48,605 nucleotides of DNA from Elainellaceae cyanobacterium (GCA_051117555.1 JBNPEG010000079.1:1-48605), one strand, 5' to 3'. Numbered from the stretch's first letter, positions 13,973-33,024 are shown. Numbers and translations: made by a program. The notes: generated by a model from the sequence alone, not told the origin.

Positions 13973-14057
13973 TATAGCCCTATGGGCTTAGGTTTGTGTG
14001 GTGAGCTCCCGCGGCGCGGGGGCTCACCACACGTTTGACGTCCTAACGCGAGAGCTA
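13973..14057 (+). mobile_element. Family C TATAGC-type miniature element
   Basis: tatagccctatgggcttaggtttgtgtg then hairpin gtgtggtgagctcccgc..gcgggggctcaccacac; truncated copy at 29607-29634. Confidence 0.6.
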
Positions 14058-30546: not shown

Positions 30547-31701
30547 CTACGCGTTAGAGGCGCGTAGCTGACCACACGCTGCGTCTGCCGCCAAGCCTCG
30601 CGTTTGACGCACGCTCACCGCGATTTTATGGGCTTCGAGGCGATCGACAAATGCCTGAATCCGTTGGGGATTAGGTCTTTGAAAATCCACTTCCTGAATT
30701 GGATTGTATGGAATCAAATTGACATGGCTTTGAAAGCCACGCAGATGGTGTGCAAGTTCGTCTGCGTGTTCAGGACAATCGTTGAGTCCCGCCAAGAGAA
30801 TATATTCAAACGTCACTCGCCGCCCGGTTAGCTGCACGTATTCTCGACATTCTGCGAGCAGATCATCTAGAGGATAATGATGAGCGCTCGGAATGAGCTG
30901 CTCTCGCAGTTGCTGATTGGATGCGTGCAGACTCACGGCTAGAGTGGCTTGAAGCTGATGCTGAGCTAAGCGACGAATGCGCCCCGGAATGCCCACGGTC
31001 GATACTGTCAAGGAGCGCTGACCGATGCCGACATCTTCATTGAGCGATCGCACGGCAGCAATGACGTGATCGACATTCAGTAACGGTTCTCCCATGCCCA
31101 TAAACACAACATTGCTGACTCGCCGCTGAAAATCTTCCTGAACCGTCAACACCTGATCAACAATTTCATGGCGCTGCAAGTTGCGAGTAAAGCCACCTTT
31201 GCCGGTCGCACAAAAGTCGCACGCCATCGGACAGCCCACCTGTGACGAGACGCAAACCGTCAACCGTTTTGAGGTCGGAATCCCAACTGTTTCGATGATT
31301 TGCCTATCCTCTAAGCGCAGCAGATATTTGACGGTTTTATCAGGGGCGACCGAGCGATAGTGAAGCTGCGATCGCCCAATGGGAATATCTGCAATGTCTG
31401 CTCGCCACTGCTTGGGCAACACGGTCACATCGTCGAGCGATCGCACGCTCTGCTGATAAATCCACTGGTGAATCTGCTTCCCTCGATACGCAGGTTGCCC
31501 TTGCGCCGTCACCCATTCAGTCAACTCGGCTTGGGATGCACCTAGAAGAGGCTTGTCTAGAGGATCCGATTGAGGTGGGGAGTTCTCTTGGGATTCATCC
31601 CACGGGGTGATCGATGCTGGTTTGATATCAGTTTGGGAATTAGAGAGTGGTGACTGAGCAGTGGATGACATGGGGACAATGTGGGATGATTTAGCGTGCA
31701 T
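30547..31701 (-). CDS. rlmN: 23S rRNA/tRNA adenine C2-methyltransferase
   Basis: [18 protein letters not shown] radical-SAM motif, FMGMGEP, AACGQL; start may be 31671. Confidence 0.97.
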
Positions 31702-31787
31702 AGACTTCTATCTTAGAAGGTCACGGCGTGATCATTCAGGAGTACCAGTCGTCTCTGATATCGGCTATCAAACGAGCAAAATTTCCA

Positions 31788-31841
31788 AAGAAAAACCCCG
31801 AAGGGTGTCCTCCGGGGTGTGAATCAGGGTGCATCTACCAT
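31788..31841 (-). ncRNA. NsiR1-like small RNA (about 52 nt)
   Basis: Minus strand ATGGTAGATGCACCCTGATTCAC followed by hairpin ACCCCGGAGG-acac-CCTTCGGGGT and U-tract; 5' segment matches my recollection of the Nostoc NsiR1 5' end. Confidence 0.65.
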
Positions 31842-31848
31842 TCCTTAC

Positions 31849-31874
31849 TACTGAGTCGAGATAGTCAGTCAGGA
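31849..31874 (-). promoter_or_regulatory. DIF1-like promoter of the NsiR1-like RNA
   Basis: TCCTGA (one mismatch to TCCGGA) at about -35, 17-nt spacer, then GTA at about -10. Confidence 0.5.
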
Positions 31875-31968
31875 TGCGATCGCGGAGTTTACAGGTTCTT
31901 TATGAGTTTTCGCGGTAAGCTTAAATTTCTGATTAAGCTCTTTTTCTGCCTGGAACTCGAACTGCCCG

Positions 31969-32775
31969 ATGATTGTATCTGCACCCGATTCTCAACGCTC
32001 TGATCGCCCGTCTTTGTTTCCAGCAGTGTATATGGTGGGAGCCGGGCCAGGTGATCCTGAATTGCTCACTGTAAAAGCCCAGCGGCTGATTTCACAGGCA
32101 GACGTGATTCTCGTTGCCGACTCGCTGGTGCCGGCTGAAATACTGGCGTTGGTGCGTCCCGATGCCGACATTATTCGCACTGCCAATAAGACCTTAGAAG
32201 ATATCCTGCCTGTCATGATTGATCGAGTGCGATCGCACCAATCAGTTGTGCGTTTGCATTCAGGTGATCCAAGTCTATATAGTGCTATCCACGAACAGAT
32301 GCAGGCATTAGCTGCCGCAGACATTCCGTTTGAGGTCATTCCAGGAATTAGTGCCTTCCAGGCTGCCGCCGCTAAGCTAGGGGTTGAGCTTACCATTCCC
32401 GAATTGGTGCAAACCATTATTTTGACGCGCATTAGCGGGCGGACTCGAGTTCCAGAGACGGAAGAACTGTCATCATTAGCGGCGCACAAAGCCAGCCTCT
32501 GCCTCTATCTCAGCGCTCGCCATATCGAAGAGGCTCAAGATAACCTGCTGCTGCATTATCCAGCGGATACACCTGTTGCGATTTGCTATCGCGTGGGTTG
32601 GCCAGATGAAAAAATTGTGGTGGTGCCCCTTGATCAAATGGCCGCCACCACTCACCAGGAAAACCTGATTCGCACGACGCTGTATTTAATTAGCCCAGCG
32701 CTGAGCGCAGAAACGGGGCGATCGCGCCTTTATAATCCGGAGCATTCTCATCTGTTTCGTCCTAAGGGAGCTTAA
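31969..32775 (+). CDS. cobM: Precorrin-4 C11-methyltransferase
   Basis: VGAGPGDPELLT, RLHSGDPSLY, PGISAFQ, TIPELVQTIILTR, SRLY. Confidence 0.95.
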   Translation: MIVSAPDSQRSDRPSLFPAVYMVGAGPGDPELLTVKAQRLISQADVILVADSLVPAEILALVRPDADIIRTANKTLEDILPVMIDRVRSHQSVVRLHSGDPSLYSAIHEQMQALAAADIPFEVIPGISAFQAAAAKLGVELTIPELVQTIILTRISGRTRVPETEELSSLAAHKASLCLYLSARHIEEAQDNLLLHYPADTPVAICYRVGWPDEKIVVVPLDQMAATTHQENLIRTTLYLISPALSAETGRSRLYNPEHSHLFRPKGA

Positions 32776-32943
32776 CCCAAGGCAACGGGCTAGCGTGAGG
32801 ATACAGGTTTCTGCCTAATTCCAAAGCGAGCAGAATTTTCCCTCAAAACAAGAATTCCTCAGGCGTCAACCTATATGCTGGCGAACCCTGAACCCAGAGC
32901 GATGCTAGCCTAAAAGCTAAATTTTGAAACTACTAAGCAGCCT

Positions 32944-32980
32944 CAAACAAATAGGGACATGGCGATCGCCATGTCCCTAT
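32944..32980 (-). terminator. Intrinsic terminator of class II fba
   Basis: Perfect 30-bp palindrome atagggacatg-GCGATCGC-catgtccctat followed by TTGTTT on the minus strand. Confidence 0.75.
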
Positions 32981-33024
32981 CAACTATCAAACCAACTTAA
33001 ATTACGCGATTATTGCATTGCCAA

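What the first reader, a model, noticed from the sequence alone, without database searches (positions are those of the whole stretch)
31788..31874. NsiR1-like sRNA with a DIF1-like promoter in an apparently non-heterocystous cyanobacterium
Seen: the rlmN-cobM gap holds a compact minus-strand unit, TCCTGA-N17-GTA, then ATGGTAGATGCACCCTGATTCAC, a 10-bp GC hairpin and a U-tract. Known: NsiR1 is a roughly 60-nt HetR-dependent sRNA of heterocyst formers, transcribed from DIF1 (TCCGGA near -35) promoters and mostly arrayed near hetF. From memory its 5' end is TGGTAGATGCACCCTGA. Inference: this is a single-copy homolog in a different gene context, keeping seed and promoter but with a different terminator. 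If the host lacks heterocysts, it points to a HetR/DIF1-sRNA circuit older than heterocysts.
Basis: partly seen in the sequence, partly recalled or inferred. Interest (0 to 1): 0.82.

Follow-up and report, generated by a model that had tools for sequence, protein, structure and literature searches.

The report
NsiR1 sRNA gene, non-heterocystous cyanobacterium
This is a genuine gene for NsiR1, a small regulatory RNA known from heterocyst-forming cyanobacteria, found here as one of six copies in a filamentous nitrogen-fixer that most likely makes no heterocysts, which shows that the RNA follows the developmental regulator HetR rather than heterocysts.

Summary
Window 31840..31787 (minus strand) matches Rfam NsiR1 at 51.9 bits against a gathering score of 39. 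It has a 10-bp terminator and a TCCTGA box 16-17 nt upstream of a GTA-type -10.

It is not single-copy. The genome has 6 matches over the cut-off in five unrelated housekeeping contexts, each with its own TCCGGA or TCCTGA box, plus a seventh seed-sharing sibling.

The host belongs to Elainellaceae, outside Nostocales. It has hetR, hetF, two patX-like genes and nifH, but no HetP-family gene and no HepA equivalog.

In 151 cyanobacterial genomes, NsiR1 over the cut-off occurs in 42 of 43 hetR-positive genomes and 0 of 108 hetR-negative ones. In 69 loci named for non-Nostocales cyanobacteria, 89 of 89 complete copies have a box within one mismatch of TCCGGA at a fixed offset.

DIF1 is now known as the -35 element of sigma-HetZ (PMC13342950). 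I could not locate hetZ in the host.

Novelty is modest. A 2016 supplementary table already lists 11 non-heterocystous homologs, a 2021 paper mentions one in Limnospira, and this scan found the same on another genome (e1-5235552). Targets remain unknown.

The parts
31869..31874 (-). DIF1-type -35 box TCCTGA (one change from TCCGGA, at the position called G-32)
   Evidence: Sequence. Invariant in all 4 orthologous spacers of the host's family. The same box type sits upstream of all 6 host copies: 3 TCCGGA and 3 TCCTGA. 89 of 89 complete copies in named non-Nostocales loci are within 1 mismatch of TCCGGA at offsets -36 to -34. A passage of PMC13342950 says G-32 can be replaced.
31845..31853 (-). 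-10 region CAGTAGTAA (core GTA), 16-17 nt after the box
   Evidence: Sequence. CAGTA is invariant in the 4 orthologs while the spacer before it varies. An aGaAnA/GTA-type -10 region is shared by heterocystous and other taxa. There is no sigma-70 consensus promoter in the spacer.
31787..31840 (-). NsiR1-family sRNA gene. The TSS is predicted at 31838-31840, by analogy with the Nostoc transcript that starts at the second G of UGGUAG.
   Evidence: Rfam RF02399: 51.9 bits, gathering score 39, model positions 1-60. Nostoc sequence in Table S3 of PMC4734099. Nearly invariant in the 4 orthologs.
31795..31818 (-). Terminator hairpin (10 pairs, loop of 4), followed by the U-tract 31787-31794
   Evidence: In G141 the two arm changes keep pairing (C-G to U-G, G-U to G-C), and the loop differs in G157.
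31887..31938 (.). Nearly invariant 52-nt block between the cobM start and the sRNA promoter. It contains an inverted repeat AGCTTAA-N8-TTAAGCT. Its role is unknown (cobM promoter or leader, or an upstream site).
   Evidence: Alignment A1. No Rfam match.
30547..31701 (-). rlmN, 86 nt downstream of the terminator on the same strand (context, not part of the unit)
   Evidence: TIGR00048, 447 bits. The terminator-to-rlmN stretch is poorly conserved and carries insertions in G156.
31969..32775 (+). cobM (precorrin-4 C11-methyltransferase), divergent neighbour (context)
   Evidence: TIGR01465, 336 bits.

Best explanation
Window 31874..31787 (minus strand) is a complete, independent gene for an NsiR1-family small RNA of about 52 nt. 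It is one of six such genes scattered over the genome of an Elainellaceae cyanobacterium. That host fixes nitrogen, carries hetR, hetF and patX-like genes, and most likely forms no heterocysts.

Shown here:
- Family membership by the covariance model.
- The promoter-plus-terminator anatomy.
- Multi-copy dispersal.
- Conservation of this copy at the same locus across the host's family.
- Strict co-occurrence of NsiR1 with hetR across cyanobacteria.
- The same promoter architecture upstream of the host's hetR and both patX-like genes.

Inferred:
- The gene is transcribed by RNA polymerase carrying the HetZ sigma factor. That factor is published to read TCCGGA (DIF1) as its -35 element and is itself switched on by HetR.
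- The RNA would therefore rise when the HetR/HetZ/PatX circuit fires, probably on nitrogen step-down.
- It then acts in trans through its invariant, largely single-stranded 5' part (UGGUAGAUGCACCCUGAU) on mRNAs that are still unknown.
- Those targets cannot be the two known Nostoc targets in their known form. No HetP-family gene was detected in the host, and hetF is neither adjacent nor complementary.
For: Identity:
- Rfam NsiR1 at 51.9 bits against a gathering score of 39.
- Terminator.
- Six copies over the cut-off in G000, each with TCCGGA or TCCTGA at the same offset and its own hairpin sequence. They sit between unrelated housekeeping genes.

Constraint:
- The rlmN-cobM copy is found in 3 of 3 other genomes of family f1.
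- The box, -10 core, seed and stem arms are conserved. The spacer, the loop and the downstream stretch vary.

Promoter:
- In 69 loci named for non-Nostocales cyanobacteria, 75 of 89 complete copies have exact TCC[GT]GA at -36 to -34, and 89 of 89 are within one mismatch of TCCGGA. Chance is about 1.4% each.
- Two seed hits in MAGs named as non-cyanobacteria have neither box nor terminator.
- DIF1 is the -35 element of sigma-HetZ, the -35/-10 spacing is 16-17 bp, and G-32 is replaceable (passages of PMC13342950). hetR activates hetZ, which acts on DIF1 promoters (passages of the Du et al. 2020 preprint).

Circuit:
- NsiR1 is over the cut-off in 42 of 43 hetR-positive and 0 of 108 hetR-negative genomes of one 151-genome sample. 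By coded family that is 11 of 12 hetR-positive families and 0 of 18 hetR-negative families.
- In the host, TCCGGA-N17-GTAAAA and TCCTGA-N18-GTATTC precede the two patX-like ORFs, and TCCGGA-N17-GTAAAT precedes hetR.
- The architecture TCC[GT]GAT-N16-17-GTA[AGT] occurs 44 times, against 13 in a reversed-genome control.

Host:
- hetR; nifH at 461.7 bits against a cut-off of 394; HetF homolog.
- No HetP family in the host, against 34 of 151 genomes positive in the control run.
- Best HepA match 542 bits, below the 725-bit cut-off.
- Family placement.
Against: - There is no expression data. No TSS, transcript or HetR dependence was seen.
- hetZ could not be located in the host by any route I had: palindrome-guided ORFs, DUF4335 neighbours, DIF1-boxed ORFs and a PDB look-up. 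The sigma-HetZ step therefore rests on literature and on the promoter sequence.
- The box here is TCCTGA, not the consensus.
- A crude duplex scan of 4841 ORF starts found nothing above the reversed or shuffled seed controls. hetF ranked 1348, hetR 1285 and nifH 1161.
- 'Non-heterocystous' is inferred from taxonomy and gene content, not seen. HepA and HetP are imperfect markers, since both occur in some hetR-negative genomes.
- Genomes in the co-occurrence table are related, so the effective sample is about 30 families, not 151 genomes.
Confidence: 0.72

Rival explanations
1. The unit is an rlmN leader. The hairpin would be an attenuator controlling read-through into rlmN, and the resemblance to NsiR1 would be incidental.
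For: The terminator ends 86 nt upstream of the rlmN start on the same strand. One other copy (C189) also has a same-strand gene, hisF, 79 nt downstream.
Against: The same promoter-seed-terminator unit occurs 6 times in unrelated contexts in this genome and in 42 of 151 genomes. The stretch between the terminator and rlmN is the least conserved part of the spacer and takes insertions of about 49 nt in G156. The seed, not the leader, is what is conserved.
Confidence: 0.05
2. It is a real NsiR1-family sRNA, but in this lineage it is not wired to HetR/HetZ. The TCCTGA box would be read by another sigma factor or be a relic, and the RNA would be constitutive or respond to another signal.
For: hetZ was not located in the host. 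The box deviates from TCCGGA. The only expression note outside heterocyst formers, in Limnospira, reports changes under gamma irradiation, not a HetR test (passages of PMC8400943). A seed-sharing sibling sRNA exists in 3 hetR-negative genomes.
Against: DIF1-type NsiR1 is over the cut-off in 0 of 108 hetR-negative genomes. The box is invariant across the family while the neighbouring spacer drifts. The same architecture precedes hetR and both patX-like genes in the host. G-32 is reported as replaceable.
Confidence: 0.15
3. The copies are a dispersed repeat, a mobile promoter-terminator cassette with no regulatory role of its own.
For: The unit is multi-copy, short (about 95 nt) and dispersed, with one tandem pair on C117. 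The genome is rich in other short dispersed repeats.
Against: Copies share only the promoter boxes and the seed. Hairpin sequences all differ while staying paired: 85 distinct 3' parts among 89 copies in other taxa. That pattern indicates selection on function, not recent transposition. This copy is held at the same locus across two genera. NsiR1 has demonstrated targets in Nostoc (abstract and passages of PMC9045159).
Confidence: 0.06

Closest known systems
NsiR1 of Nostoc/Anabaena sp. PCC 7120 (Rfam RF02399; Ionescu et al. 2010, as cited in PMC9045159 and PMC6596454)
   Same: It has the same 5' sequence, about the same length, a Rho-independent terminator and several sibling copies. Each copy has its own promoter with a DIF1 box at the same offset.
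   Different: Nostoc has 12 tandem copies upstream of hetF, one of them antisense to the hetF 5' UTR. Here six copies are dispersed among housekeeping genes and hetF lies elsewhere. The known trans target family (hetP-like alr3234) was not detected in the host. The box variant TCCTGA is used in 3 of 6 copies. The host is outside Nostocales.
RNA162, the NsiR1-like 57-nt sRNA of Limnospira indica PCC 8005 (PMC8400943, passages read)
   Same: It is an NsiR1-family RNA in a filamentous, hetR-bearing cyanobacterium without heterocysts, and there it is reported as expressed.
   Different: That paper gives it only a passing mention, with no promoter analysis, copy number or distribution. Limnospira does not fix N2, whereas this host has nifH.
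DIF1 (sigma-HetZ) promoters of hetR, patS, patX, patU, sigC and hep genes (PMC13342950; Du et al. 2020 preprint), and the predicted DIF1 promoter of patX-hetR in Leptolyngbya sp. BL0902 (PMC11298460)
   Same: It has TCCGGA-type -35 boxes 16-17 nt from the -10. In the host the same architecture precedes hetR and both patX-like genes.
   Different: Those promoters drive protein genes. The passages I read in these three papers do not mention NsiR1 in non-heterocystous strains.
Earlier finding e1-5235552 of this scan (tandem NsiR1 genes in another non-heterocystous genome)
   Same: Same family, same promoter type and the same conclusion that the RNA follows the HetR/HetZ circuit.
   Different: It concerns another genome, with two tandem copies. 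It reports co-occurrence with HetZ, which I could not test. I tested hetR instead.

Membership tests
NsiR1 (Rfam RF02399) | Covariance-model score at or above the curated gathering score | tested here: met
   51.9 bits against 39, model positions 1-60 of 60.
NsiR1 (Rfam RF02399) | Conserved 5' sequence UGGUAGAUGCACCCUGAU followed by a Rho-independent terminator, about 55-60 nt in all | tested here: met
   18 of 18 consensus positions are identical. 10-bp hairpin plus U-tract.
NsiR1 (as described in Nostoc) | Own promoter with a DIF1 motif (TCCGGA) centred near -35 | tested here: met
   TCCTGA at 31874-31869, one mismatch at the tolerated G-32 position. The offset is the same as in 45 other copies of non-Nostocales or unnamed loci.
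NsiR1 (as described in Nostoc) | Tandem array upstream of hetF, one copy antisense to the hetF 5' UTR | tested here: not met
   The copies are dispersed over 5 loci and only C117 has two in tandem. hetF is on C139, which holds no copy.
NsiR1 (as described in Nostoc) | HetR-dependent, heterocyst-specific, nitrogen-stress-induced expression | not testable with these tools
   No expression data could be obtained for this host, so nothing bears on this feature.
NsiR1 (as described in Nostoc) | [quoted passage not shown] | tested here: not met
   HetP family NF037966: 0 matches in the host, against 34 of 151 genomes in the control run. The hetF start region ranks 1348 of 4841 in the duplex scan. 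The scan is crude, so hetF pairing is not excluded.
sigma-HetZ (DIF1) regulon | -35 TCCGGA-type element 16-17 bp from the -10, and no sigma-70 consensus | tested here: met
sigma-HetZ (DIF1) regulon | hetZ (with patU) present in the same genome, under HetR | tested here: inconclusive
   hetR is present. hetZ was not located because I had no family accession or query sequence. The literature calls hetZ, patU and hetR core genes of filamentous cyanobacteria.

The most novel reading that the evidence does not exclude
The NsiR1 seed is older than heterocysts and probably older than its link to HetR. It would be an ancestral small RNA that was rewired twice by promoter change.

- A seed-sharing sibling sRNA (AAGUAGAUGCACCCUGAUG plus a GGAGAG..CUCUCC terminator) sits just downstream of gatB from Elainellaceae to Nostocaceae.
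- In hetR-positive genomes it is preceded by a HetR-recognition-like palindrome over the -35 region.
- In three hetR-negative genomes the sRNA is kept and the palindrome is absent.
- The multi-copy DIF1 (sigma-HetZ) form, the classical NsiR1, would be a later amplification of the same seed.

One seed would then be delivered by two tiers of the HetR-to-HetZ cascade, and its conserved target would be a gene common to filamentous cyanobacteria rather than a heterocyst gene.
Probability: 0.4. Interest if true: 0.72.

Novelty: new member of a known kind. Interest (0 to 1): 0.48.

Why it matters
What hetR, hetZ and patX do in the many filamentous cyanobacteria that never make heterocysts is an open question. 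PMC11298460 calls it a mystery.

NsiR1 genes are short and multi-copy, and their promoter is sharply defined. In my 151-genome sample they occurred only in hetR-positive genomes. That makes them a ready-made reporter and read-out for this circuit in non-heterocystous species.

They also show that 'heterocyst-specific' describes where NsiR1 is expressed in Nostoc, not what the RNA is for. Its invariant seed must have a target shared by filamentous cyanobacteria in general.

For annotation, the practical point is that NsiR1 hits outside Nostocales are real and should be expected wherever hetR is present.

Tried and rejected
1. Expression: the look-up of sequencing runs on window 31000-33000 with kind rna listed no RNA holder.

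2. hetZ in the host was not found by any route.
- ORFs downstream of relaxed HetR-box palindromes: 196 sites and 65 ORFs, of which 12 were scanned.
- The one unannotated 424-aa candidate had no Pfam, NCBIfam or PDB match and starts with a signal peptide.
- DUF4335 (PF14233), which I recalled as patU-like, hits two large ORFs in the host and in G147 and also rings in Synechococcus elongatus. It has no HetZ-sized neighbour.
- Palindromes in G147 led to hetP and to the sibling sRNA array, not to hetZ.
- Two guessed accessions turned out to be HisXaaSer_A2 and EPS_HpsO.
- ORFs behind DIF1-type boxes were recA, a WecA/MraY-like transferase, an M23 peptidase and unknowns.
- A paper search for 'HetZ' plus 'Pfam' returned only authors named Hetz.

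3. Target prediction with RNAduplex on 4841 ORF starts gave no signal above the reversed or shuffled seed. The top hit is the antisense of the sRNA's own C1 gene copy.

4. HepA (NF045513) and the HetP family (NF037966) both proved imperfect as heterocyst markers. HepA is over its cut-off in the hetR-negative genomes G011 and G074. HetP occurs in f3, f8, f10, f11, f13 and f17.

5. The sibling sRNA is not in Table S3 of PMC4734099. A search for 'NsiR2' gave nothing relevant.

6. Covariation statistics and an own covariance model were not run. The family is already curated, and the copies found by exact seed would bias any such count.

Full report
**1. The observation**

Read on the minus strand, window 31874..31787 holds the following:
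- TCCTGA at 31874-31869.
- A 16-17 nt spacer.
- CAGTAGTAA at 31853-31845.
- UGGUAGAUGCACCCUGAUUCAC from 31840.
- A 10-bp hairpin at 31818-31795.
- A U-tract down to 31787.

The Rfam NsiR1 model (RF02399) matches 31840-31787 end to end at 51.9 bits, against a gathering score of 39. The E-value is 1.9e-7 for the whole 48.6-kb window. It is the only Rfam match in the spacer even at E <= 1.

The simple scans find this terminator (1 found, shuffle mean 0.4). They find no sigma-70-type promoter in 31600-32100. The fold energy on its own is unremarkable, with z -1.56.

The neighbours are rlmN (30547-31701, minus strand) and cobM (31969-32775, plus strand).

**2. It is not single-copy**

The host genome is G000: 6.06 Mb, 256 contigs, 100% complete by marker genes. 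It has six NsiR1 matches over the cut-off:
- C48.
- C1.
- C111 (this one).
- C117, two copies about 213 bp apart.
- C189.

A seventh match on C201 scores 31.4 bits.

Five of the six copies share the exact 17-nt seed, and one has two changes. Every copy has its own G+C-rich hairpin sequence. Every copy has TCCGGA (3 copies) or TCCTGA (3 copies) at the same distance upstream, followed by an AGTA-type -10.

Their neighbours are unrelated housekeeping genes:
- An ABC exporter and a Get3-like ATPase.
- ABC permeases.
- rlmN and cobM.
- yebC and a UbiH-like hydroxylase.
- A peptidoglycan-binding protein and hisF.

**3. The host**

*Family placement.* The flanks of two host copies are 92.6% (284 nt) and 83.9% (317 nt) identical to loci of a genome whose record title carries the family name Elainellaceae. 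That genome has its hetR at the same contig coordinates and E-value as G141, which the tool calls the same genus as the host. NCBI taxonomy puts Elainellaceae in the order Elainellales, outside Nostocales.

A table in PMC7674949 places the GTDB genus O-77 in this family. It cites a paper whose title calls Thermoleptolyngbya sp. O-77 a non-heterocystous cyanobacterium with nitrogenase activity (passages only).

*Gene content.*
- hetR is present.
- nifH scores 461.7 bits against a cut-off of 394.
- PatD is present.
- A HetF homolog lies on C139, with 55% identity over the first 457 residues of the Nostocaceae-type HetF.
- There are two PatX-like small ORFs ending in HRGSGR.
- There is no HetP-family match. 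The same search finds the family in 34 of 151 genomes.
- The best HepA match scores 542 bits, against a cut-off of 725.

That heterocysts are confined to Nostocales is established knowledge. The host's lack of them is therefore an inference, not something seen.

**4. Distribution**

I sorted the loci by record title:
- 20 are named for heterocystous genera.
- 69 are named for non-Nostocales cyanobacterial taxa. Examples are Leptolyngbyaceae, Elainellaceae, Oculatellaceae, Microcoleus, Symploca, Coleofasciculaceae, Spirulina, Geitlerinema, Phormidesmis, Crinalium, Chamaesiphon and Pseudanabaenaceae.
- 33 are unnamed or uncertain. I placed Plectonema cf. radiosum here.
- 2 are named as non-cyanobacterial MAGs.

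| Group | Complete copies | Exact TCC[GT]GA at -36 to -34 | Within 1 mismatch of TCCGGA |
|---|---|---|---|
| 69 named non-Nostocales loci | 89 | 75 | 89 |
| Heterocystous-named loci | 73 | 51 | 72 |
| Unnamed or uncertain loci | 46 | 43 | 46 |

- 59 of the 89 pass my strict hairpin-plus-U test.
- 85 of the 89 have distinct 3' parts.
- The two hits in MAGs named as non-cyanobacteria have neither box nor terminator, so they act as negative controls.
- Outside Nostocales the genes are mostly single per locus (56 of 69 loci). In the heterocystous-named loci there are 1 to 8 per locus.
- TCCTGA is commoner outside Nostocales: 20 of 74 boxes tallied, against 2 of 51.

**5. Link to hetR**

I searched one evenly drawn sample of 151 Cyanobacteriota genomes, requested at 90% completeness or more, with RF02399 and with the HetR family PF03574.
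- hetR is in 43 genomes.
- NsiR1 is over its cut-off in 42 genomes, and all 42 are hetR-positive.
- The one hetR-positive genome without it is G117, where the best E-value is 1.5e-4.
- None of the 108 hetR-negative genomes has a match over the cut-off. Seven have weak matches at E between 1.5e-4 and 8.9e-4.

By coded family, 11 of 12 hetR-positive families have it and 0 of 18 hetR-negative families do. The genomes are related, so the family count is the fairer one.

Family f7 (22 genomes) carries the long tandem arrays. In G147 it also has hetF next to the array. The other ten positive families include the host's.

Eleven of the 42 NsiR1-positive genomes lack the HetP family. NsiR1 therefore does not depend on that target.

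**6. Constraint on this copy**

The rlmN-cobM copy is found at the same locus in all 3 other genomes of the host's family:
- G156: 82% identity over the whole 461-nt query.
- G141: 86% over nt 1-348.
- G157, a different genus: 82% over the promoter and the sRNA.

In the alignment:
- The box, the CAGTA core, the first 25 nt of the RNA, the stem arms and the U-tract are invariant or change compatibly.
- The -35/-10 spacer, the loop and the stretch from the terminator to rlmN vary.
- That last stretch takes insertions in G156.

This is the signature of a promoter plus a short RNA gene, not of an rlmN leader.

**7. Mechanism**

In the literature the DIF1 motif is now the -35 element (T-35 C-34 C-33 G-32 G-31 A-30) read by the sigma factor HetZ. 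The -35/-10 spacing is 16-17 bp, and T-35, G-32 and A-30 are replaceable (passages of PMC13342950). The TCCTGA variant here changes exactly G-32.

HetR activates hetZ, and HetZ drives DIF1 promoters, including those of hetR, patS and patX (passages of the Du et al. 2020 preprint).

In the host the same architecture stands upstream of both patX-like ORFs and of hetR:
- TCCGGA-N17-GTAAAA and TCCTGA-N18-GTATTC before the patX-like ORFs, each about 60 nt before the start codon.
- TCCGGA-N17-GTAAAT before hetR, at -245.

The pattern TCC[GT]GAT-N16-17-GTA[AGT] occurs 44 times in the genome, against 13 in a reversed-genome control.

I therefore read the element as a sigma-HetZ-dependent sRNA gene of the HetR/HetZ/PatX circuit. 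The sigma-HetZ step is inferred, because I could not find hetZ in the host (see Tried and rejected).

In Nostoc PCC 7120 the mapped transcript starts GUAGAUG, and the reads are 1 (WT 0 h), 30 (WT 8 h) and blank for the hetR mutant (Table S3 of PMC4734099). By analogy the TSS here would be near 31838.

**8. Targets**

The two known targets in Nostoc are hetF and alr3234 (abstract and passages of PMC9045159). One array copy is antisense to the hetF 5' UTR, and alr3234 is a hetP-like gene.
- In the host no HetP family gene was detected.
- hetF is on a contig without any NsiR1 copy.
- A crude duplex scan of 4841 ORF start regions shows nothing above controls: best real -26.6 kcal/mol, shuffled -27.2, reversed -31.5 and -24.8. 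hetF ranks 1348.

The target of the invariant seed in such organisms is open.

**9. Comparison with what is in print**

Reviews and the primary papers describe NsiR1 as an RNA of heterocyst formers. However:
- Table S3 of PMC4734099 gives NsiR1 38 homologs in 89 genomes, 27 of them heterocystous. That leaves 11 in non-heterocystous strains.
- By my reading of the tab positions these are Trichodesmium IMS101, Arthrospira PCC 8005, Oscillatoria PCC 7112, 6506 and 6304, Microcoleus FGP-2, Spirulina PCC 9445, Crinalium PCC 9333, Geitlerinema PCC 7105, and Leptolyngbya PCC 6406 and 7375.
- The passages of the main text that I read do not comment on this.
- PMC8400943 mentions a 57-nt NsiR1-like RNA in Limnospira.
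- PMC11298460 predicts a DIF1 promoter at patX-hetR in a non-heterocystous Leptolyngbya, but the word sRNA does not occur in it.

My searches were 'NsiR1' plus 'non-heterocystous' (4 papers), 'NsiR1' (41 papers) and 'DIF1' plus 'patX' plus 'HetR' (9 papers). In the passages I read from those hits, I found no statement that DIF1-driven NsiR1 genes accompany hetR throughout non-heterocystous cyanobacteria. Subscription papers (Ionescu 2010; Brenes-Alvarez 2019, 2020; Elhai and Khudyakov 2018) were not available to me and may say more.

An earlier agent of this scan reached the same conclusion on another genome (e1-5235552).

**10. Side finding: a sibling sRNA**

The seventh host match (C201:97358-97408) belongs to a sibling family.
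- Its sequence is AAGUAGAUGCACCCUGAUG followed by a GGGAGAG..CUCUCC terminator.
- It lies in the gatB-ffh spacer.
- It is preceded by the palindrome GGGGGTGTCACCCCTC and, 13 nt further on, a cATAAT -10.
- A second palindrome-promoter-terminator unit with a different 5' part lies 244 nt upstream.

In the Nostocaceae-type genome G147 at least 8 tandem copies of the same sRNA lie just downstream of gatB. Each follows a GAGGGG-N5-CCC(C/T)TC-like palindrome and a TATACT -10.

The 19-mer, within one mismatch, occurs in 43 of 151 genomes, and the reversed control pattern occurs in none. Some of the one-mismatch hits are ordinary NsiR1 array members.

I inspected one sibling locus per genome in 24 genomes:
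- Among 21 hetR-positive genomes the palindrome is recognisable in 19 and degenerate in 2 (G095, G059).
- In all 3 hetR-negative genomes (G011, G133, G137) the sRNA is kept and the palindrome is absent.
- gatB is the upstream neighbour in 8 of the 14 three-kb loci fetched.

The palindrome matches the HetR recognition motif as I recall it; no call gave me that motif. A perfect copy lies about 1.1 kb upstream of a HetP-family gene in G147, which fits the recalled motif. I found no name for this sibling in the texts searched.

**11. Verdict**

- The feature is real, and its identification as NsiR1 with a DIF1-type promoter is correct.
- The host is very probably non-heterocystous.
- 'Single-copy' is wrong.
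- The evolutionary reading, that the circuit is older than heterocysts, is supported by the hetR co-occurrence. It is partly anticipated by published supplementary data and by work on hetR, patX and hetZ.
- It is a new member of a known kind, of moderate interest.
- The sibling sRNA with the HetR-box-like promoter is the more novel lead.

Noticed in passing
G000:C201:97000-97410 (locus L007 1217-1551), outside the window; also L156 7753-8890 in G147 and loci L172-L185, L194-L204: A sibling of NsiR1. This sRNA of about 50 nt shares the seed (AAGUAGAUGCACCCUGAUG) and has a GGAGAG..CUCUCC terminator. It lies just downstream of gatB from Elainellaceae to Nostocaceae-type genomes. A HetR-recognition-like palindrome over the -35 region precedes it in 19 of 21 hetR-positive genomes inspected and in 0 of 3 hetR-negative genomes that keep the sRNA.
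   Followed up: yes
L007 1217-1310 (G000:C201 about 97074-97170): A second palindrome / cATAAT / terminator unit lies 244 nt upstream of the sibling sRNA. Its 5' part is unrelated, so it looks like another small RNA with the same promoter type.
   Followed up: no
window 31887-31938: A 52-nt block between the cobM start and the NsiR1 promoter is nearly invariant even in a different genus of the family. It contains the inverted repeat AGCTTAA-N8-TTAAGCT and has no Rfam match. It could be a cobM promoter or leader, or a protein-binding site.
   Followed up: partly
G000:C201:134856-135059 (-) and G000:C252:2763-2930 (-); hetR upstream G000:C248:67323-67349: There are two PatX-like small ORFs (hydrophobic N-terminus, C-terminal HRGSGR), neither next to hetR. 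Each has a DIF1-type box about 60 nt before the start codon. hetR has the same architecture at -245.
   Followed up: partly
window 13993-14055, and more than 35 other places in G000 (matches to L028 1-76): A dispersed repeat of about 76 bp is present in many contigs at 81-92% identity.
   Followed up: no
G000:C54:43305-43321 (L137 about 2506-2522): This is the only perfect GAGGGG-N5-CCCCTC palindrome in the host. It lies between an unannotated ORF of 122 aa (probably about 97 aa) and two TPR-protein genes, and may be a direct HetR target.
   Followed up: partly
G000:C1:11613-11665 (-) and the ORF C1:11735-12379 (+): The C1 NsiR1 copy lies on the opposite strand 70-122 nt upstream of an ABC permease ORF. 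If that mRNA has a long 5' UTR, the sRNA would be cis-antisense to it, as NsiR1.1 is to hetF in Nostoc.
   Followed up: no
Genomes G011 (f5) and G074 (f13) in the 151-genome sample: The NCBIfam equivalog for the heterocyst protein HepA is over its cut-off in two hetR-negative genomes, with four copies in G011. The HetP family also occurs in several hetR-negative families. Neither is a clean heterocyst marker.
   Followed up: no
L156 11001-11193 (G147): A weak sub-threshold match to HEARO RNA (36.4 bits against a gathering score of 83) lies beside gatB.
   Followed up: no
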